From an uncultured Candidatus Saccharibacteria bacterium (GTDB lineage: Bacteria; Patescibacteriota; Minisyncoccia; Phycocordibacterales; UBA9973), in contig CAZXCN010000003.1 in assembly GCA_964639185.1 (NCBI GenBank), positions 14,059 through 78,058 on the forward strand: a DNA stretch of 64,000 bases, written 5' to 3'. Under the pieces are notes generated by a model. That model was given only the letters and a program-made list of their open reading frames with translations, made no database searches and was not told where the DNA came from. The first letter of the stretch is position 1. Each line of letters begins with the position of its first letter. A program made the position numbers and the translations under genes. Positions 33,677 through 60,114 of the stretch are shown one piece after another.

Positions 33677-36469
33677 ATGGCTATTATGTGGCATAAATAT
33701 TTATACATAATACAAAATCCAGATCCTCAGACGTGTCTCGCAGGTCTCGTTTGTGCCAATGATACTTTTATTGCCATATACGGGGTCATATTCACTATTG
33801 TAATTTCCTTGGGTGTATATATTTATGGTCTACAAAACAGAGAAGAGAAAATAACCCTACTTAAAAGTACAGATATTAAAGGTATCATAGAAAACTCTCT
33901 TGGTTTTTTTGCATTTACTTTTTTTGCATTACCCAACCCCGTCTATGAAATTTTTAACTTTATATTTTTAGGATGGATTCTTCTGAGACTGCTAGGTGCT
34001 TTTAAGGAAGTCTTTAAATTTAATGAGAGCGAATTGTCGGGAGAAAGAGCTGTGAAGAAGTTCAAGGAAGGTGTGATTCGTGAGAAGCTTATCCAATTTG
34101 AGGATTTAAAGAAAAAGAATGAGTTACTGAATGAAGAACTTGAGAAGAAAAGGGGTGAGGAAATAGAAAGATTCCTCTTCAGTGAAAACAATGAGTCTTA
34201 TCACCTTATTCGCGCTCAAAGTTCCGGGTATATTACAGATATTGATCTCAATATCTTATTTGCGAATGAAGACAGTAAAGATTCTTTGGGAAATTATTCA
34301 TACTATATTCCGTATCACATTTCACACGGTGCTCCAATAGATTTCGATACAGTGATTCTCGGTGTAAAAAAAGATGGAGATAAGAAAATCGATGAAGACA
34401 GAGAAGACAGACTGCGGTCTTTCATATCTGTCAGTGATGAATATGAAAATCCGACCTCTTACATTGAAGCCGAAACAAGGAATTATTACCCACAAATGAT
34501 CTCCTTGATAAAGCTTGAAGATTCAAAAAGTCTTGAATTGAAACTTAAAGAATTTTCTAGCTTCGTTGATCATTTCACAAACAAGTCAGATTCGTACGTA
34601 GATATTATCCAATTTATTAATGATGATATTATCTTTACCTTGCAAAAATACGCATTCAAGCAAGGAAACGTTGATTGTATAAGAAAGGTGGTGTCGTTCT
34701 CTCTCGGATATATTTATCAGGCGTTAGACAAGAAATCAACGAAGACATTTAATATCTTTTTTAGAAACTTCGGGCATGCCTATTATGAAGCGTTCAGTCT
34801 CAATAAAAAAGAAAGGGATGAATTCTTTGATATTTATTTCAGATGGCTTAACGAAGTTGCTAAGTATTCATTAAAATCCAGAATCAAAAAGGATGATGAT
34901 TATTCGGAGTTTGTTACTACTTTTCTATCTGGAGTTAACGGATGGTTAAAAATTGCTTTTGACCGCAAAGACATTGATGTTTTCGAGAAAACACTGTCAT
35001 TCTTAAATAACTCTCTTTCCCGTGAGACGTATGAGCACGATAAGGATGATGCACTTGATGAGGCTGTTCTCACCAAGAAAGCTGTACTGTTTGGTTTTAC
35101 TGCGTGGGTGTATAAATATTTTCCGGCAAGAAAGGGCGATGACTTTTACCGCAATGCACTGTCCAAACTACTGTCAGCCTTGGCTAAGGATCCAATCCGT
35201 CACTACGCAAACAATCAAGATGATTTGAATTATTATTTGAGTATTTACTTAAAGAGTGCGGAACTCTCAGAAAGCAAGGGTTCTTTTGGATGGGATAGTT
35301 GGGATATGCCCGAGGGAACAGTTTCTACGGTTACAATACGTCATGATATTAAGAATCTGCTAACAGATCGTATTCTTAATATTGTATTAGCTAACCCCAC
35401 TCTAGCCGTTGATATAAAAGATAAAAATTATAACGACGAACTTTCTCTTGTAAAACAAGGCAACCAGCAGTTCGATGTTCTTCTAAATAAGACCAAAGAC
35501 TTTTTTGTCTCTACGGAAAAACTAACAGATGAACAATTTGATACCGCAAAAACTAAATTTTATGAAGTCTTCTCAAAGATCGCTGAAAAATACGAATCCG
35601 ATGTTAGGAGTAAGCTTATTCAGCAGTCAATTGATGATGAAAAATTTAATGAATTTGCAAAACAGAATTTTGAGTCATATAAAAAGTCGCGAGTTTTGTA
35701 CGGTATTCAAAAGTTTATAAAAGATAGTACAAAGAGGAGCGATGGTTTTGGATATAACACCCTCTTATCCAAAGAACAGTTTGTTAAAGAGACCAATGTT
35801 CACTATTCAAACGGAGACCAGTTTGGTGAAGATCTTGCTAGGTCAGAAGACAACAAGATTCTTGAATCCATCTACAAGAAAGTAGAAAAGACCCCTCTTA
35901 TTAGTAGAGAAAATATTGGTAAGAACATATATCCCGAGAGTGATACAACAGCCATCATCTTGTGGCTAAACGGCTACTTGAGTATCGAATCATATTCTCC
36001 TAACGATTTTGTTCCTTATTGGCAGGAAGTAGATTCCAGAAAAGATAAAGGTCCCTATTATCAAGGAACTATTAAGGGTGTTCCCGTGTATATCATTTAT
36101 AAGTTCCAAGATCAGAAGTCATATCCAGACTCCATGTTTATTTTTAAATCGGGGTCATTCTCTGCTCATGAATTTGAAATAGAGAAGGATACTGAGTTAG
36201 ATGAGGCAAACACAAAATGGTCAAACGATGAAGAAAGTTGTTTAACTTTATCCATAACTAACCTCTCAAGTCTTGATGAGGCTCGTAAAAAGATAGTTGA
36301 AAATTGGATCAAGAATGATCCTGATAGCGTAAAAGATAAAGACGCAAAAATTGAAGAGATTAAAACAGATGTGATCTTTAAATTCTATAAAGGACTGGGA
36401 GTTGAAGATTTAGTTATTGATGGTAAAAAAATTAAGATTTTCCGCATTAAGAGAAGTTGGATTAAGTAA
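33677..36469 (+). CDS. Large hypothetical protein, 930 aa: three N-terminal TM helices, a coiled-coil segment, then an ~800-aa cytoplasmic region with no recognisable motifs (island cargo)
   Basis: Long uninterrupted ORF. TMs at about residues 20-50, 65-85 and 90-110; coiled coil LIQFEDLKKKNELLNEELEKKRGEEIERF. No Walker A, integrase or nuclease signatures seen. Confidence 0.6.
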   Translation: MAIMWHKYLYIIQNPDPQTCLAGLVCANDTFIAIYGVIFTIVISLGVYIYGLQNREEKITLLKSTDIKGIIENSLGFFAFTFFALPNPVYEIFNFIFLGWILLRLLGAFKEVFKFNESELSGERAVKKFKEGVIREKLIQFEDLKKKNELLNEELEKKRGEEIERFLFSENNESYHLIRAQSSGYITDIDLNILFANEDSKDSLGNYSYYIPYHISHGAPIDFDTVILGVKKDGDKKIDEDREDRLRSFISVSDEYENPTSYIEAETRNYYPQMISLIKLEDSKSLELKLKEFSSFVDHFTNKSDSYVDIIQFINDDIIFTLQKYAFKQGNVDCIRKVVSFSLGYIYQALDKKSTKTFNIFFRNFGHAYYEAFSLNKKERDEFFDIYFRWLNEVAKYSLKSRIKKDDDYSEFVTTFLSGVNGWLKIAFDRKDIDVFEKTLSFLNNSLSRETYEHDKDDALDEAVLTKKAVLFGFTAWVYKYFPARKGDDFYRNALSKLLSALAKDPIRHYANNQDDLNYYLSIYLKSAELSESKGSFGWDSWDMPEGTVSTVTIRHDIKNLLTDRILNIVLANPTLAVDIKDKNYNDELSLVKQGNQQFDVLLNKTKDFFVSTEKLTDEQFDTAKTKFYEVFSKIAEKYESDVRSKLIQQSIDDEKFNEFAKQNFESYKKSRVLYGIQKFIKDSTKRSDGFGYNTLLSKEQFVKETNVHYSNGDQFGEDLARSEDNKILESIYKKVEKTPLISRENIGKNIYPESDTTAIILWLNGYLSIESYSPNDFVPYWQEVDSRKDKGPYYQGTIKGVPVYIIYKFQDQKSYPDSMFIFKSGSFSAHEFEIEKDTELDEANTKWSNDEESCLTLSITNLSSLDEARKKIVENWIKNDPDSVKDKDAKIEEIKTDVIFKFYKGLGVEDLVIDGKKIKIFRIKRSWIK

Positions 36470-38293: not shown

Positions 38294-38686
38294 ATGAAAA
38301 AAGGAGTATTAATAATTTCAATATTTATTTTATCAATAAGTTTTGGGCTGACAGCTTTCCCTCAGTCAGCAAATGCTGTGTGGGGTCTAAATGTTGGTTT
38401 GGGTTTTGGTAATGGTGGTTATGATAATTATGGTGGAGGCTACTCCTCATATGGTAACAATTATGGCAATAGTCCTTATGGCTATGGCTACAATGCGCCT
38501 TACAACGGAACTTGGGGTAATAATGCTTATACTAATCCATACGGTAGTTATTATGGTAACTACGGTAACAACAATAATGCAAGGCTTAATGTAGGTATTA
38601 ACTTTGGTTTCAATAATTATGGTGCTAACACTTATGGTGGATACGGAGGTTACTCATGTATGCCAACAAACATCTGGGGTTGCTAA
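38294..38686 (+). CDS. Secreted Gly/Tyr/Asn-rich low-complexity protein (130 aa) with a signal peptide and a C-terminal Cys pair
   Basis: Signal MKKGVLIISIFILSISFGLTAFPQSANA, then GYGYNAPYNGTWGNNAYTNPYGSYYGNYGNNNN ... CMPTNIWGC. Confidence 0.55.
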   Translation: MKKGVLIISIFILSISFGLTAFPQSANAVWGLNVGLGFGNGGYDNYGGGYSSYGNNYGNSPYGYGYNAPYNGTWGNNAYTNPYGSYYGNYGNNNNARLNVGINFGFNNYGANTYGGYGGYSCMPTNIWGC

Positions 38687-38699
38687 ATTTAAAATAAAC

Positions 38700-38742
38700 A
38701 AAAATCACTTGGAAGTCAGACTTCCAAGTGATTTTTGTTTAT
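38700..38742. terminator. Bidirectional rho-independent terminator between convergent genes
   Basis: aaatcacttggaagtc-aga-cttccaagtgatttttgttt (perfect 16-bp stem). Confidence 0.75.
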
Positions 38743-39785
38743 TAATCTTCGTTTATTTTTTCTAGCAACATTGGCTCGAGCTCTATACTCTCGCCAGTGA
38801 TCTTCATAATATCTTTATCTACTTTTTTGAATTCTTTTTGGCTGGCTTGGTAGTGGTTGATAACTGTACCAATAGAATTACCAAGCTTGTTGTGATATTC
38901 CTCATACGATTTTAAATGTTTAGTCAATTCACCAACACGCTTTACTATATCTTTTGCACTCTCTTCTATCTGCATAGCTTTGAGGCCTTGGAGTACTGTT
39001 TGCAAATAAGCTAGGAATGAAGTAGGGGATACAATAATGACTTTGTATTTACTTGCAGCACGCTGAATCAGGTTTTCGTTGTCTTCATTCAGCCCTCCTA
39101 TTTTATTTATAAGCAAGTCATAATATATGGCTTCGTGAGGGATGAACATAAAGGCAAAGTCCATTGTGTTTTGATCGGGTTGGATATATTTACTTGTCTC
39201 GCTTATTCGCATTTTCAAATCATTTACAAAAGTTTTCTCTAATCTTTCTTTTTCAGATTTATCATTTGTTTCTACCATGCGATTATAATTCTCGAGCGAG
39301 AATTTAGAATCAATAGGAATGATTTTGTCTTTTACAAATACTACAGCATCGACAATAGTACCATCGGGGAATCCGTATTGCATTTCATAGCTTCCAGGTG
39401 GCATGACATTTTTTAATAAAGTTTCCAAATAATATTCACCGAGCACACCACGCTGTTTTGGGTTCTTCAATATGTCTTGCAAGCTCTTGAGCTGGTCGGC
39501 AAAAGATACAACTTGTTTATTTGTCTCATCGAGGCGTGTAATCTTCTCTGTGATGTCACCTATAATGCGAGATGTTTCGCTTGATTGATAGCGCATAGTC
39601 TCATTTACCTGTTTACTTGATTCATGGAGCTTGTTGTCCAGAGTCCGAGTCATCTCATTCATTTGCGCTAGAATCAATTTTAGCCCTGTATCATCAGCTT
39701 GCGTATCCTTTTTACTACGAGTAAAAAAGTAACCTACTACAAGCCCAGCTAGTACTGCAATTATTATAAATAAAATATTTGTCAT
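38742..39785 (-). CDS. rmuC: DNA recombination protein RmuC
   Basis: N-terminal TM, a long coiled coil and the RmuC C-terminal domain (GVLGEYYLETLLKNVMPPGSYEMQYGFPDGTIVDAVVFV... MFIPHEAIY). Confidence 0.7.
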   Translation of the reverse strand: MTNILFIIIAVLAGLVVGYFFTRSKKDTQADDTGLKLILAQMNEMTRTLDNKLHESSKQVNETMRYQSSETSRIIGDITEKITRLDETNKQVVSFADQLKSLQDILKNPKQRGVLGEYYLETLLKNVMPPGSYEMQYGFPDGTIVDAVVFVKDKIIPIDSKFSLENYNRMVETNDKSEKERLEKTFVNDLKMRISETSKYIQPDQNTMDFAFMFIPHEAIYYDLLINKIGGLNEDNENLIQRAASKYKVIIVSPTSFLAYLQTVLQGLKAMQIEESAKDIVKRVGELTKHLKSYEEYHNKLGNSIGTVINHYQASQKEFKKVDKDIMKITGESIELEPMLLEKINED

Positions 39786-39889
39786 ATGTGTATTTTAGCA
39801 TAAACCTAAAAATGAACCTTATTTTCTAAACCTTTACAAAACCAATTTAGTATGTTAATTTAAAGAAAAATATTTAAAAATAAAATATC

Positions 39890-41716
39890 ATGAACAAAAG
39901 ATCCTTATTGCTCAAAAATTCTAGTGTAGAGATTAACAACACTGAAAAATTTGGATTGCTTCAATTTTTGCAATCCATCACTAACTCCATTCCCATGCCA
40001 CGTCTTTGGTTGCCTAATAATGATTACGATTATATGGGTTCCTTTCAGATCAAAGAAAAAATCGAAAAAAATGGCTTAAATTTTTTATCAAACATTGAAA
40101 TAGACTACGTAACTCTCTTGCAAAGACAAGAATTTATTAAATGGTTCTTTGGTAACAAGGAATTCATTAACTTCCTTTTGACTACAACTGTGCCGGTAAA
40201 AAAAAGTAGCGGTAATCGTTACTCTGATGTTACCGATGTTTTGGCAATGCGTCGTTATCTGTCGAATCTTTTAAAGTATCTAGAGGAACATCCTTATAGT
40301 GCTTCTTTTGCAAAAAAAGTGAAAAAAGAGTTATCTGATTTCAGGCAGATTGATTCCTTGGTAAGCTCATGTCACTCAATTACACTACAGGGAGTATGTT
40401 CTTTTACTCCAGAAAATCATTCCAGGAAATTTTTTCTTAATACGAAAAATTTGGAGTTAAAATTGGTTGGAAAAAATAAAAAGTACATACTAACTATTAT
40501 TGACTTTTTAGAGGGAAATGTTGATTCTATGAAATGTTGTTTAGAACAAAAAGGTGGAGATTCAAAAATGCCATATGATATTTGCGAAGCGATTTTTTAT
40601 GCAATTTTTACTTTATATAATGATGATATTAAAAAAATATCAGAAAATAAGAAGGGTAACGTGCATATAAAGCTTGAATTTTCAGACATTCAATTAAGAA
40701 GTGTGCAATGTATGTTGTCAGTACAAGGATTCGGTAAAAAGCATGTATTGTATCCTGTGAAAGTCGATCCGACGAGTAACAGTTACGAAACTGTTGAATT
40801 CCATGTTCTGCCAGAAAATGATTCTATTACAAAACACAGAATACTCACTAAAGTTTTACCTATTCAAAAATTGATGGATCTTCCTGGAAAAGAATCAGCA
40901 GGCTTATCAAACGGGTTCATTAATAAAATGACGAATACGGTAAGTGAATTTTTTCGACAATCTGATTCTTTTAAGGAATTGATTTTTTTGGCCAGCATTG
41001 CTCACTACTATCATAAATCTGGTAAAGTTTTTGTTTTCCCTAAAATTCTTCCAAAAGAAGAAATGAAGCTGAAATCAATAGCAAGTATCAATCCTTTGTT
41101 TATTGATGCAAAAAAATCGGTGCCAAATAATGTAATGTTGAATAGAAAGATATTGGCGAATGTGATTTATGGTGCAAATACTGGAGGAAAGACAGGTTAT
41201 GTAAATATGTTTATTTTAAATCAAATTTTGACTCAAACAGGATTACCTATTTTTGCCAAAAATGCCGAAATTTCCATGAAGGACAATATTCTCCTTCATT
41301 ATCCTGAAGGTGCAGAAATAAGCCCAAATGAATCAAGGTTTGATGCTGAGCTATCTCGATTGGAAACGCTATTAAAGCAGTCTACTAAATATAGCCTCAT
41401 AGTATTTGATGAAGCTTTTACAGGGACAGAGGCAGAAGTCGGTTCTTCTCAGTTGCAGGATGTGATTTTTGTGTTGAAGACATTGGGATGCCATTTTATG
41501 GTAACTACTCATTTTCATGGATTAATTGATTTCATTGATAAAATGGAATCTTTAGAAAATAAACATTTTAAATTGCCCAATCCTAACGGCGTCAAAAAAT
41601 TTAATTATAAAATCCAACCTAATGGATCAACTCAATCTTTTGGCCTTGATGTTATTCGTAGAAAAAAATTAGATCTTGAGTCAATGTTGAAATTAGTAGA
41701 AAAGAAAACTACTTAA
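39890..41716 (+). CDS. MutS-family ATPase (domain V only) with a ~400-aa N-terminal region of unknown homology; no mismatch-binding or Smr domain
   Basis: C-terminal ABC/MutS ATPase: Walker A GANTGGKTGYVNM, MutS signature SRFDAELSRLETLL, Walker B SLIVFDEAFTGTE and TTHFHGL (the ATHYHEL equivalent). The N-terminal 400 aa are unrecognised. Confidence 0.6.
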   Translation: MNKRSLLLKNSSVEINNTEKFGLLQFLQSITNSIPMPRLWLPNNDYDYMGSFQIKEKIEKNGLNFLSNIEIDYVTLLQRQEFIKWFFGNKEFINFLLTTTVPVKKSSGNRYSDVTDVLAMRRYLSNLLKYLEEHPYSASFAKKVKKELSDFRQIDSLVSSCHSITLQGVCSFTPENHSRKFFLNTKNLELKLVGKNKKYILTIIDFLEGNVDSMKCCLEQKGGDSKMPYDICEAIFYAIFTLYNDDIKKISENKKGNVHIKLEFSDIQLRSVQCMLSVQGFGKKHVLYPVKVDPTSNSYETVEFHVLPENDSITKHRILTKVLPIQKLMDLPGKESAGLSNGFINKMTNTVSEFFRQSDSFKELIFLASIAHYYHKSGKVFVFPKILPKEEMKLKSIASINPLFIDAKKSVPNNVMLNRKILANVIYGANTGGKTGYVNMFILNQILTQTGLPIFAKNAEISMKDNILLHYPEGAEISPNESRFDAELSRLETLLKQSTKYSLIVFDEAFTGTEAEVGSSQLQDVIFVLKTLGCHFMVTTHFHGLIDFIDKMESLENKHFKLPNPNGVKKFNYKIQPNGSTQSFGLDVIRRKKLDLESMLKLVEKKTT

Positions 41717-41744
41717 AAGTAAATATACTTTATTCTTGAAACAA

Positions 41745-41786
41745 AAAATCGCTCAAAGTCTTGAAAAAACTTGAGCGATTTTTTTA
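41745..41786. terminator. Bidirectional terminator between the MutS-like gene and the exonuclease gene
   Basis: aaaaatcgctcaaag-tcttgaaaaaa-cttgagcgatttttt. Confidence 0.6.
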
Positions 41787-41790
41787 TTTT

Positions 41791-42510
41791 TTAATGCAAC
41801 ATTCCTAAATAATGTTTTAATGTATATATCCAATCTTCGTCATCGGGGCTTTGTTCCAACTTTTGATTCAATAACCATTGTAAATATCCTGAATCTATTT
41901 TGGATACTTCCTCAATACTCTTGCCCTTGTGTTTACCAAAATTAAAGTCACGCATTAGTGACGGGTGTGATGACATTTCAAGCATCTTTGTTATGGCTTT
42001 ATCCTCGCTACCTTCTTGGTCGACAGCTTTTTTATACAGTCTTTCAAACAATTTCTCTAGTACACGTACATCACCGAGTGCATCATGAGCTTGGGCATCT
42101 ACTTCTATTTCCAGCAAGTAACGCAAGTACTGTAAACCGTATTGGCTGATCTTGCCTTCTTTATCGAGCCCCCGTGCACATCGTAATGTACATATAAAAT
42201 TCTTCGGATAAATATCTTCTTTGTGCATCATGCCTAAGTCAAACTTGGCATTGTGAGCAATAAATATAGAATCATTATCTTCAAGTAAATCTTTCATCGG
42301 CTGGTAATCTCTGCTTTCTTTAAAGCTTGGCTTGTCAGCTACATGTTTGTTTGTGATGTGTGTTATTGCACTTGCTTCGGGTGGAATAGGTATCGCAGGC
42401 TTGTACAATTCGCAGAATTCGGTTCCGTCGAGTTTATATGCTATCTGACACAATACATCAGATGGTGTATTGCCTGTTGTCTCAGTATCTATAAATATAA
42501 GTTTTTTCAT
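41791..42510 (-). CDS. DEDDh 3'-5' exonuclease (DnaQ-like) with a C-terminal extension
   Basis: Exo I FIDTETTG, Exo II FIAHNAKFDLGMM and Exo III HDALGDV. A C-terminal ~70 aa (FGKHKGKSIEEVSKIDSGYLQWLL) resembles DUF3820/QSregVF_b-type tails. Confidence 0.75.
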   Translation of the reverse strand: MKKLIFIDTETTGNTPSDVLCQIAYKLDGTEFCELYKPAIPIPPEASAITHITNKHVADKPSFKESRDYQPMKDLLEDNDSIFIAHNAKFDLGMMHKEDIYPKNFICTLRCARGLDKEGKISQYGLQYLRYLLEIEVDAQAHDALGDVRVLEKLFERLYKKAVDQEGSEDKAITKMLEMSSHPSLMRDFNFGKHKGKSIEEVSKIDSGYLQWLLNQKLEQSPDDEDWIYTLKHYLGMLH

Positions 42511-59005: not shown

Positions 59006-59014
59006 ATATAAAAA

Positions 59015-59132
59015 TCCTAAACTAGCTCTCCCCAGAGGGTACGGAAATTTTTTGGTAAAAATTTCCTGAAGTTTGATCGCCGTCGCGCTCAAAACCCCCT
59101 CTGGAAAGACTAGTTTAGGATTTTTTTTGTTA
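59015..59132 (+). other. ~118-nt nested inverted-repeat structure between rpmE and prfA (outer 14-bp stem aatcctaaactag/ctagtttaggatt + T8; inner stems ccagaggg/ccctctgg and ggaaattttt/aaaatttcc)
   Basis: Read directly from the sequence. It probably serves as the rpmE terminator but is far larger and more structured than the other terminators here. Confidence 0.55.
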
Positions 59133-59145
59133 TAATATTAAAATT

Positions 59146-60114
59146 ATGGAAAATATTGAAGAACTAAAAAAGAATCACAAAACAAGTTATCTCGCTACAC
59201 AATACGAGCATCTTTGTCGTGAGGAGGATAAGGTTATGACTATGATAAATGAAGATGAAAGCATGCGTGAACTTGCCGAGGAAGAATTGCAAAATATTAA
59301 ATTTCAAAAAGAGGGGATCGAGAGGCAAGTAGAAGAAATATTAAAATCAGAACGTGAGGAAGAGGAATTTCCAAATGAAATTGTTTTAGAGGTTCGTGCT
59401 GGTGCGGGGGGTGACGAAGCATCGCTTTTTGCATGGGAATTGGCACGTATGTATGAGCGTTATGCTGAGGATAAAGGCTGGAGTTGGAAAACTTTAAATG
59501 AATCTGAAAATAATGTTGGTGGATACAAAGAGGCTTCGTTTGAAGTTCGTGGCCGTGATGTATACCGTGAATTACGATACGAGACAGGTGTGCACCGTGT
59601 ACAAAGAATTCCTGCTACTGAGAAAAATGGGCGCATACATACATCTACTGCATCAGTCGCTGTTTTGCCGATGAAGAAGAAGGTGACTATTGAAGTTAAC
59701 CCTGCTGATATTGATATGGAATATTCACGTTCCGGTGGTGCTGGCGGGCAAAATGTGAATAAAGTTGAAACAGCAGTACGACTAATACACAAGCCAACAG
59801 GTATCGATGTCCGATCGACTTCTGAGCGCACACAGCTTGGTAATAGAGAAAAAGCAATGGGTATATTATTGTCTAAATTACAAATGGCAAAAGACGAAGA
59901 AGATGCAAAGAAGTATTCTGCTGATCGAAAGAATCAGATAGGTACAGCCGACAGAAGTGAAAAGATTCGAACATACAATTTCCCTCAGGATCGTGTGACT
60001 GATCACCGAATTCGCCAATCTTGGTCCAATATCCCAGGCATAATGGAAGGTAACATAGTAAAGATAGTAGAAGCCCTTTCATCTGGAGTCGTTGGCGAAG
60101 CAGACGAGGAATAA
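59146..60114 (+). CDS. prfA: Peptide chain release factor 1
   Basis: GGQ motif [28 protein letters not shown] carries the RF1-type PxT (PAT) tripeptide. Confidence 0.85.

What the first reader, a model, noticed from the sequence alone, without database searches (positions are those of the whole stretch)
39890..41716. MutS-domain-V ATPase with a novel 400-aa N-terminal region, flanked by RmuC and a DEDDh exonuclease
The C-terminal ~200 aa carry all MutS ABC-ATPase motifs (GANTGGKTG, SRFDAELSRL, LIVFDEA, TTHFHG). The protein lacks the mismatch-binding, connector and Smr/endonuclease domains. Its N-terminal 400 aa match nothing I recognise.

It is transcribed divergently from rmuC (a putative PD-(D/E)xK recombination nuclease) and convergently with a DnaQ-like exonuclease bearing an extra C-terminal domain. 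This could be a non-canonical repair or recombination module, or an ATPase-nuclease anti-phage module.
Basis: partly seen in the sequence, partly recalled or inferred. Interest (0 to 1): 0.6.

Follow-up and report, generated by a model that had tools for sequence, protein, structure and literature searches.

The report
Orphan MutS-family ATPase in Patescibacteria
This gene encodes a rare, stand-alone relative of the MutS DNA-repair/ribosome-rescue ATPases, found only in a few ultra-small (Patescibacteria) bacteria; its "novel" front half is predicted to be a diverged MutS core carrying an enlarged extra domain, and the nuclease genes beside it look like chance neighbours, not partners.

Summary
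Window 39890-41716(+) is a 608-aa ORF with an intact MutS domain V ATPase (Pfam E 6e-24). It has no mismatch-binding, connector, KOW or Smr domain. It is flanked by RmuC (divergent) and an ExoX-like DEDDh exonuclease (convergent).

- **Phylogeny:** the ATPase domain falls outside MutS1 and MutS2. It forms its own clade of about 14 protein clusters, all Patescibacteria where the source is named. That clade groups with another uncharacterised MutS_V-only clade (187/200 bootstraps).
- **Three-gene module:** not supported. Each gene is its own transcription unit. RmuC and ExoX adjacency exists only in close relatives that share the whole region's synteny. Seven other family contexts lack both genes and instead show ribosomal-protein operons, RNase R, NYN or cold-shock genes.
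- **Defence:** there is no defence signal.

Most likely this is a stand-alone dimeric ATP-driven clamp on DNA structures or on ribosomes. The substrate is unresolved.

The parts
39890..41716 (+). Complete gene for the 608-aa orphan MutS-family ATPase (includes stop codon)
   Evidence: ORF. Pfam MutS_V. Full-length relatives P0002-P0004 and P0123-P0133.
39833..39861 (+). Putative own promoter: TTTACA, 17 nt, then TG-n-TAATTT (extended -10 type). Inferred, not tested.
   Evidence: Read from the sequence. The same -35/-10 arrangement (TTGACA/TTTACA, 17 nt, TGnTA..) lies upstream of every family member examined, in unrelated contexts.
39890..40039 (+). Residues 1-50: N-terminal segment with the conserved 'KFG(L/M)' motif (residues 20-23); no known counterpart
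   Evidence: Alignments. Model pLDDT 88-91 for residues 11-30.
40040..40369 (+). Residues 51-160: helical core plus ascending lever helices (MutS domain III/IV-like by predicted structure only). Family motif ETD..I..RQ.FF..L..D..L..FLL..YP.
40370..40849 (+). Residues 161-320: beta-rich insert (about 10 strands and 2 helices) at the tip of the levers, where MutS proteins carry the small clamp. Net charge is positive in 10 of 12 family members. No structural counterpart found.
40850..41029 (+). Residues 321-380: descending lever/core helices, the first part that aligns by sequence to MutS, MSH2 and MutS2
   Evidence: phmmer to MSH2 from residue 326. NCBIfam MutS/MutS2 alignments from 346-348. 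hhalign from 344-359.
41030..41713 (+). Residues 381-608: MutS domain V ABC-type ATPase plus C-terminal helix-turn-helix (dimerisation element in MutS proteins)
   Evidence: Pfam PF00488. PDB phmmer hits. Helices 584-591 and 596-607.
41171..41197 (+). Walker A, GANTGGKTG (residues 428-436). The family-specific G-A-N replaces the G-P-N of MutS1 and MutS2.
   Evidence: Invariant G428 A429 N430 G432 G433 K434 T435 in 12 family members. MutS1/MutS2 consensus.
41333..41362 (+). Signature-like motif SRFDAELSRL (residues 482-491), preceded by the family-specific H-Y-x-E (H470, E473)
   Evidence: Invariant H470 E473 N480 S482 E487 L488 R490 L491. A similar 'HFP(E/S)' motif occurs in the ~535-aa orphan clade.
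41396..41416 (+). Walker B, LIVFDEA (residues 503-509), with the catalytic Glu (E508)
   Evidence: Invariant F506 D507 E508.
41504..41521 (+). H-loop/switch motif TTHFHG (residues 539-544)
   Evidence: Invariant T540 H541 H543.
41743..41786 (.). Bidirectional intrinsic-terminator-like hairpin (A-run, ATCGCTCAAAG ... CTTGAGCGAT, T-run) between the convergent stop codons of the MutS-like gene and the exonuclease gene
   Evidence: Sequence read. It separates the two transcription units (inference).
38742..39785 (-). Neighbour: RmuC-family protein (347 aa). Physically adjacent, but judged not to be a functional partner.
   Evidence: PF02646 E 1e-53. Adjacent only in close relatives; absent next to distant members.
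41791..42510 (-). Neighbour: ExoX-like DEDDh 3'-5' exonuclease with an ExoX-like C-terminal domain (239 aa). Judged not to be a functional partner.
   Evidence: PF00929 plus PF20600. NCBIfam exodeoxyribonuclease X and epsilon-like, below cutoffs. Adjacent only in the close relative L003.

Best explanation
The gene encodes a stand-alone member of a rare MutS-family paralogue lineage; all members with a named source come from Patescibacteria. Its predicted architecture is a diverged MutS core and levers, an enlarged and mostly basic beta-rich domain of about 160 aa where the small clamp normally sits, an intact ABC-type ATPase, and the C-terminal helix-turn-helix.

By analogy with every characterised MutS protein, it should form a homodimer. 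ATP binding and hydrolysis at the composite ATPase sites would open and close the two lever/clamp arms around a bulky nucleic-acid substrate. It has no mismatch-recognition or connector domain, so it cannot do mismatch repair. It has no nuclease domain, so it can only bind, clamp or remodel.

My preferred substrate is DNA: duplex or branched recombination intermediates, as for the T. thermophilus and H. pylori MutS2 cores and archaeal MutS5. The protein would then modulate recombination of incoming or damaged DNA. The flanking RmuC and ExoX-like genes are independent housekeeping genes that happen to be adjacent in this lineage.

Shown here: ORF, domain content, motif conservation, family size and taxonomy, phylogenetic position, transcription-unit signals, and lack of conserved synteny.

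Inferred: the fold of the N-terminus (a prediction), dimerisation, the clamp mechanism, and the DNA substrate.
Against: The DNA substrate is inferred only from family precedent and one (non-independent) neighbourhood. B. subtilis MutS2 uses the same core, lever, clamp and ATPase on collided ribosomes (PMC10897456). Neighbours of distant members are more often RNA/translation genes than DNA genes. The N-terminal fold rests on a prediction whose MSA contained MutS2 sequences globally aligned to the family, which could bias the model. The family-only model was low-confidence outside residues 160-330. No sequence-level homology supports the core/lever assignment for residues 1-340.
Confidence: 0.45

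Rival explanations
1. It is a ribosome- or RNP-directed MutS-like ATPase. Like B. subtilis MutS2, the dimer would engage stalled or collided ribosomes and split them using ATP. The enlarged basic clamp-position domain would replace the missing KOW and Smr recruitment domains.
Against: It has no KOW or Smr domain and lies outside the MutS2 clade. The neighbour enrichment is not significant: 6 of 14 immediate neighbours are RNA/translation genes, in genomes where such genes make up a large share of annotated genes. Even inside the spc operon the gene has its own terminator and promoter. Co-occurrence with RqcH could not be tested.
Confidence: 0.25
2. It works with RmuC and the ExoX-like exonuclease as a three-gene, non-canonical repair/recombination module. 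The ATPase would recognise a DNA structure and the two nucleases would process it.
For: Both immediate neighbours in the window are DNA-metabolism nucleases. The arrangement recurs in three relatives.
Against: These are three separate transcription units in divergent and convergent orientation. The relatives that share the arrangement share the whole housekeeping region, so they count as one observation. None of seven other family contexts has RmuC or a DEDDh exonuclease adjacent.
Confidence: 0.08
3. It is an ATPase-nuclease anti-phage defence system.
For: The RmuC and DEDDh domains match PADLOC models (DRT-associated RmuC; Cas-associated DEDDh). The gene has a patchy, rare distribution.
Against: PADLOC gives no hit for the ATPase. 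The PHROG hits are only generic MutS_V. The surroundings are core genes: PRPP synthase, YqeY, Obg, GatB, Mur ligases. The position is stable among relatives. There is no operon and no viral-contig match.
Confidence: 0.03
4. It is an ordinary MutS2 that simply lost its KOW and Smr tail and diverged quickly in a reduced genome.
For: The predicted core/lever/ATPase layout equals the MutS2 core. hhalign to MutS2 extends furthest N-terminally, to residue 279 with the small profile.
Against: The ATPase domain groups with MutS2 in only 12 of 200 bootstraps and with another orphan clade in 187 of 200. TIGR01069 scores 84 bits against a cutoff of 400. The Walker A (GAN) and H-Y-x-E motifs are family-specific. 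Long-branch artefacts cannot be fully excluded with NJ.
Confidence: 0.07
5. It is a MutS_V-type ATPase with a function unrelated to nucleic acids, for example an enzyme reactivase or chaperone like KamC.
For: The NCBIfam KamC model scores as well as the MutS models (79.7 bits), which shows that MutS_V proteins can have non-DNA roles.
Against: The score is far below the KamC cutoff of 300. No aminomutase or B12 genes are nearby. The basic clamp-position domain suggests nucleic-acid binding.
Confidence: 0.05

Closest known systems
Bacterial MutS2 core (T. thermophilus 7VUF, T. maritima 9KCE, B. subtilis 7QV3)
   Different: No KOW or Smr tail. The clamp position holds a beta-rich domain of about 160 aa; the whole lever-plus-clamp region spans about 264 aa here, against 116 aa in T. 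thermophilus MutS2 (PMC12292046). There is no sequence similarity before about residue 340. The family lies outside the MutS2 clade.
MutS1 / eukaryotic MSH2
   Different: It lacks the mismatch-binding domain (PF01624) and the connector (PF05188). NCBIfam MutS scores 83 bits against a cutoff of 480. Mismatch repair is therefore excluded.
Uncharacterised MutS_V-only paralogues (the ~535-585-aa clade P0134-P0147/P0026; possibly the MutS3/MutS4 subfamilies of Lin, Nei & Ma 2007)
   Same: Best profile-profile match (E 3e-38). Groups with the family in 187 of 200 bootstraps. Shares the H-[YF]-P-[EGS] motif and the 'ILPKE' junction. Only MutS_V is recognised by Pfam. Single stand-alone gene.
   Different: Only the C-terminal ~250 residues align. 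These proteins are shorter and lack the 160-aa insert, and the one locus fetched has ordinary housekeeping neighbours and no source name. Identity with MutS3/4 could not be tested because no reference sequences were available.
Archaeal MutS5 (P. furiosus)
   Same: MutS ATPase-domain protein without mismatch specificity; thermostable ATPase plus non-specific DNA binding (PMC2190696). It is a model for what a stripped-down MutS can do.
   Different: Archaeal lineage. Not compared directly here.
KamC (lysine 5,6-aminomutase reactivase ATPase)
   Same: MutS_V-type ATPase of about 500 aa; scores 79.7 bits on residues 380-553.
   Different: Far below the cutoff of 300, and no aminomutase context.

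Membership tests
MutS superfamily (MutS domain V ABC ATPase) | PF00488 domain with Walker A, signature-like motif, Walker B (DE) and H-loop | tested here: met
   E 6.3e-24, 85 bits against a cutoff of 30. The motifs are invariant in 12 family members.
MutS superfamily | Core/lever helical domain preceding the ATPase, and a C-terminal HTH for dimerisation | tested here: inconclusive
   Met in the predicted structure only. No Pfam MutS_III/IV hit and no hhalign match before about residue 340. The model MSA contained MutS2 sequences.
MutS1 (mismatch-repair MutS) | N-terminal mismatch-binding domain I and connector domain II | tested here: not met
   No PF01624 or PF05188 hit. NF003810 scores 83 against 480 and TIGR01070 scores 77 against 642. 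The MutS1 clade excludes the family.
MutS2 | C-terminal KOW and Smr domains | tested here: not met
   The protein ends at the HTH (608 aa). No PF01713 or PF20297 hit.
MutS2 | Equivalog-level sequence membership / phylogenetic placement in the MutS2 clade | tested here: not met
   TIGR01069 scores 83.7 bits against a cutoff of 400. MutS2 (with and without Smr) is monophyletic in 200/200 without the family.
MutS3/MutS4/MutS5 (Lin et al. 2007) | MutSac-only or MutSd+MutSac proteins forming separate clades; MutS4A/B as adjacent overlapping genes | not testable with these tools
   No reference sequences were available. The family is single-copy in every locus. It groups with an orphan MutS_V-only clade.
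KamC reactivase | NF052383 equivalog score of at least 300 | tested here: not met
   79.7 bits.
Anti-phage defence system | Match to a known defence-protein model, an operon with an effector, and a location in a variable island | tested here: not met
   No PADLOC hit for the ATPase. Monocistronic. Core-gene neighbourhood conserved among relatives.
Proposed RmuC-MutS-ExoX module | Conserved co-localisation across independent lineages | tested here: not met
   Present only in the window clade, where the whole region is syntenic. Absent in 7 other contexts.
MutS2-type ribosome splitting factor | Co-occurrence with RqcH; ribosome/disome binding | not testable with these tools
   Whole genomes could not be scanned. 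No RqcH, Smr or MutL gene was found among the window ORFs annotated (about 45 ORFs; a few small ones were not scanned).

The most novel reading that the evidence does not exclude
A previously unrecognised MutS clade, so far seen only in Patescibacteria, acts on ribosomes. It would be a KOW/Smr-less functional analogue of B. subtilis MutS2 in which a new basic beta-rich domain at the clamp position provides recruitment. That would give these ultra-reduced bacteria a minimal one-protein ribosome-splitting factor.
Probability: 0.2. Interest if true: 0.6.

Novelty: new variant of a known kind. Interest (0 to 1): 0.35.

Why it matters
MutS paralogues that lack domains I and II are common but mostly uncharacterised. 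The discovery that MutS2 splits collided ribosomes showed that the MutS clamp/ATPase machine is not limited to DNA.

This family is a very small, clean example: about 14 clusters, single-copy, with the minimal architecture plus one new domain, found in organisms with extremely reduced genomes. If characterised, it could show what the bare core/lever/ATPase engine does without nuclease or recruitment domains, and what the new clamp-position domain recognises.

The practical lesson for annotation is negative. The attractive flanking by two nucleases is lineage synteny, not a system.

Tried and rejected
- **Metagenome scan:** A hand-made Walker-A pattern gave 0 hits in metagenome contigs and 0 in viral contigs, although it matches 15 of 17 fetched loci.
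- **Profile search with A6:** it returned only 4 proteins because of the 8000-candidate word filter.
- **P0126:** this 1689-aa cadherin/Ig-repeat protein from the N-terminal profile search was rejected as a repeat-driven spurious match.
- **Shared regulatory motif:** I looked for a shared operator or leader upstream of family members, such as an SOS box. Only sigma-70-type promoters and upstream terminators were evident by eye.
- **Neighbour statistics:** RNA/translation neighbours (6 of 14) and DNA-nuclease neighbours (2 of 14) are both within chance expectations for these genomes by my rough binomial estimates, so neither decides the substrate.
- **First bootstrap script:** it timed out and was re-run with a lighter NJ implementation.
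- **DGR accessory 'MutS-like' (MSL) lead** (PMC8632793): dropped, because no reverse-transcriptase domain was found among the window ORFs annotated or the called genes at family loci.
- **prfB frameshift idea** for the short release-factor gene at 59146: rejected, because the ORF has a plain ATG start.
Full report
**1. Observation.**

The window encodes a 608-aa ORF at 39890-41716 (+), with an ATG start. Pfam finds only MutS domain V, at residues 425-592, E 6.3e-24.

NCBIfam models for MutS2, MutS1 and KamC all hit the same C-terminal region. Their scores are about 77-84 bits, far below their cutoffs of 300-640. No mismatch-binding, connector, MutS_III/IV, KOW or Smr domain is detected.

Upstream and divergent lies an RmuC-family gene (38742-39785, PF02646, E 1e-53). 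Downstream and convergent lies a DEDDh exonuclease with the ExoX-like C-terminal domain (41791-42510, PF00929 plus PF20600). The physical description is therefore correct.

One adjustment is needed. Sequence similarity to MutS, MSH2 and MutS2 already begins at residues ~326-356, not at 400.

**2. Organism and neighbourhood.**

A relative (P0121) is annotated by NCBI as coming from a 'Patescibacteria group bacterium'. A distant member comes from a Candidatus Saccharibacteria MAG.

The window is ordinary core chromosome. It carries RelA/SpoT, topoisomerase I, SerRS, several Mur ligases, PBPs, PRPP synthase, YqeY, MYG1, Obg, GatB, GAPDH, pentose-phosphate enzymes, a release factor and four tRNAs. 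None of the ORFs I annotated (about 45; a few small ones were not scanned) is a MutL, Smr, RqcH, reverse-transcriptase or defence gene.

**3. Family size.**

A word-indexed search of 5.8 billion proteins found only three other full-length clusters, at 41-55% identity. Everything else matched only the ATPase.

An exhaustive HMMER search of 1.84 billion representatives with an N-terminal profile added two distant full-length members (P0123, P0124) and a fragment. It also returned one spurious repeat protein. Searching with P0124 revealed a second subclade, P0127-P0133, at 27-29% identity to the window protein.

In total there are about 14 clusters. A scan of one genome per species found 2 of 185,579. 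A family-specific Walker-A DNA pattern matches 15 of 17 fetched loci. It found nothing in 241 million metagenome records and nothing in IMG/VR. The family is real, conserved and very rare.

**4. The N-terminus.**

By sequence, residues 1-340 match nothing. Pfam and NCBIfam are silent, and hhalign of a 12-member family profile against MutS2, MutS1, Smr-less MutS2 and an orphan clade aligns only from residue ~344-371 onward.

By predicted structure the picture changes.

- **Family-only MSA model:** poor overall (pLDDT 54), but confident for residues 160-330. It showed helices, then a beta-rich block, then helices.
- **48-sequence MSA model:** pLDDT 80.9 and pTM 0.75, with the same secondary-structure order.
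- **Foldseek:** agrees, with TM 0.60 normalised to the T. thermophilus MutS2 core.

So roughly 150-200 residues outside the ATPase domain superpose on the MutS core and levers.

Two parts have no counterpart. One is residues 1-50, which carry a conserved KFG(L/M) motif. The other is the beta-rich block at residues 161-320. It sits between the ascending helices (114-159) and the descending helices (323-377), which is where MutS proteins carry the small clamp.

The lever-plus-clamp region spans about 264 residues here, against 116 in T. thermophilus MutS2 (domain limits from PMC12292046). The insert has a positive net charge in 10 of 12 members, up to +17. It is only 13% identical between subclades.

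Caveats:

- The good model's MSA contained MutS2 sequences aligned globally to the family, which could bias the tertiary arrangement.
- No domain-only model or AFDB search was possible.

**5. Phylogenetic position.**

I built neighbour-joining trees of the ATPase domain: 215 columns, 49 sequences, 200 bootstraps.

| Grouping | Bootstrap support (of 200) |
|---|---|
| Family monophyletic | 200 |
| MutS1 monophyletic | 199 |
| MutS2, with and without Smr, monophyletic | 200 |
| Family + MutS2 | 12 |
| Family + MutS1 | 1 |
| Family + the ~535-585-aa MutS_V-only clade | 187 |

The ~535-585-aa clade is also the best profile-profile match (E 3e-38). It shares the H-[YF]-P-[EGS] and 'ILPKE' motifs.

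The protein is therefore not simply a MutS2 that lost Smr. It belongs to the poorly characterised MutS paralogues. Lin et al. 2007 (PMC2190696) described such subfamilies as MutS3-5. PMC12292046 notes that many prokaryotic subfamilies lacking domains I and II remain uncharacterised. Identity with MutS3 or MutS4 could not be tested.

**6. Is there a three-gene module?**

Three lines of evidence argue against it.

First, the genes are separate transcription units. The MutS-like gene is divergent from rmuC across a 104-nt AT-rich spacer that holds a promoter-like element conserved among relatives. It is separated from the convergent exonuclease gene by a bidirectional terminator-like hairpin at 41743-41786.

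Second, the close relatives that keep RmuC and/or ExoX adjacent also keep the other genes visible on their short contigs. These include PRPP synthase, a Gly-rich small protein, YqeY, a holin-like protein, a VTT-domain protein, MYG1 and Obg. This is lineage synteny and counts as one observation.

Third, no other family context has either gene adjacent:

| Member | Neighbours |
|---|---|
| P0124 | Divergent from rpsP-khpA-trmD; followed by RNase R |
| P0129 | Divergent from rpsF-ssb-rpsR |
| P0133 | Between rplE and rpsN of the spc operon, together with four unknown genes, and with its own terminator and promoter |
| P0131 | Next to a NYN-domain gene |
| P0127 | Next to a cold-shock protein and TruB |
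| P0123 | Next to DUF1003 and an Ala-rich protein |
| P0128 | Next to genes of unknown function |

Every member examined has a consensus-like sigma-70 promoter of its own.

**7. Defence?**

PADLOC has no model matching the ATPase. The PHROG hits are generic MutS_V. The locus is stable among relatives and embedded in core genes, and no viral contig carries the family pattern. A defence role is unlikely.

**8. Mechanism.**

- **Shown:** the ATPase motifs are intact and invariant across the family. They include the Walker A Lys, the Walker B Asp-Glu, the signature-like Ser and the H-loop His. The C-terminal helix-turn-helix is present in the model.
- **Inferred from the MutS family:** homodimerisation through the ATPase/HTH, and ATP-driven opening and closing of two lever/clamp arms around a bulky substrate.
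- **Excluded:** mismatch recognition, because domains I and II are absent. No nuclease domain was detected, so intrinsic nuclease activity is not expected.

The substrate is not resolved.

- **For DNA:** precedent from MutS1, MutS2 cores and MutS5, the basic clamp-position domain, and the single window-clade neighbourhood.
- **For the ribosome:** the same engine splits collided ribosomes in B. subtilis, where the ATPase is essential and KOW/Smr mutants keep partial activity (PMC10897456). In addition, 6 of 14 immediate neighbours across contexts are RNA/translation genes. That enrichment is not significant in genomes so rich in such genes.

I put DNA-structure clamping at about 0.45 and ribosome/RNP remodelling at about 0.25. 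The remainder is split among the minor rivals.

**9. Verdict.**

The feature is real and correctly located. It is a new, rare variant of a known kind: a MutS-family paralogue with a new clamp-position domain, so far seen only in Patescibacteria.

It is not a new fold overall, not a nuclease module and not a defence system. Interest is moderate to low. It would rise if the ribosome-directed reading, or a specific role for the new domain, were demonstrated.

Noticed in passing
window 59010-59127 (+): A Y-shaped hairpin of about 115 nt, followed by a U-run, lies between an SLT-domain gene and the release-factor gene. MFE is -53.4 kcal/mol, z = -8.9 against shuffles, and no Rfam family matches. 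It could be a small RNA or an elaborate terminator.
   Followed up: partly
window 33677-36469 (+): A 930-aa ORF with a hydrophobic N-terminus has no hit in Pfam, NCBIfam, PADLOC or PHROGs. It is the largest unannotated gene near the finding.
   Followed up: partly
window 38294-38686 (+); also L002 1717-2115: A 130-aa protein with an apparent signal-peptide-like N-terminus and a Gly/Tyr/Asn-rich low-complexity body. An unannotated gene of similar size sits at the same position in a relative; its sequence was not compared. No family hit.
   Followed up: no
window 38695-38741: A perfect 20-bp inverted repeat that acts as a bidirectional terminator-like hairpin between the Gly-rich gene and rmuC.
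   Followed up: no
L011 4042-9812 (GCA_964603415.1): In one Patescibacteria MAG the spc ribosomal-protein operon is interrupted between rplE and rpsN by five genes: one with a weak SPFH-like hit, three unknown (87, 529 and 261 aa), and the MutS-like gene. A terminator and promoter lie in front of the MutS-like gene.
   Followed up: partly
Proteins P0134-P0147, P0151, P0026; locus L018: An uncharacterised clade of MutS_V-only proteins, 535-585 aa, with two subgroups about 29% identical. It is the nearest relative of the family. In L018 the gene is single-copy and sits beside a RelB/YafQ toxin-antitoxin pair and housekeeping genes.
   Followed up: partly
L012 2712-2987: The gene call for P0131 appears N-terminally truncated. 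An upstream in-frame ATG adds 'MTSKLTTTVNSFFSHGNTTLGERFNKFG', which restores the family's conserved N-terminal motif.
   Followed up: partly
window 59146-60114 (+): The release-factor gene (PCRF plus RF-1 domains) is short, at 322 aa, and starts at model position 29 of PCRF. No upstream frameshift site was seen.
   Followed up: partly
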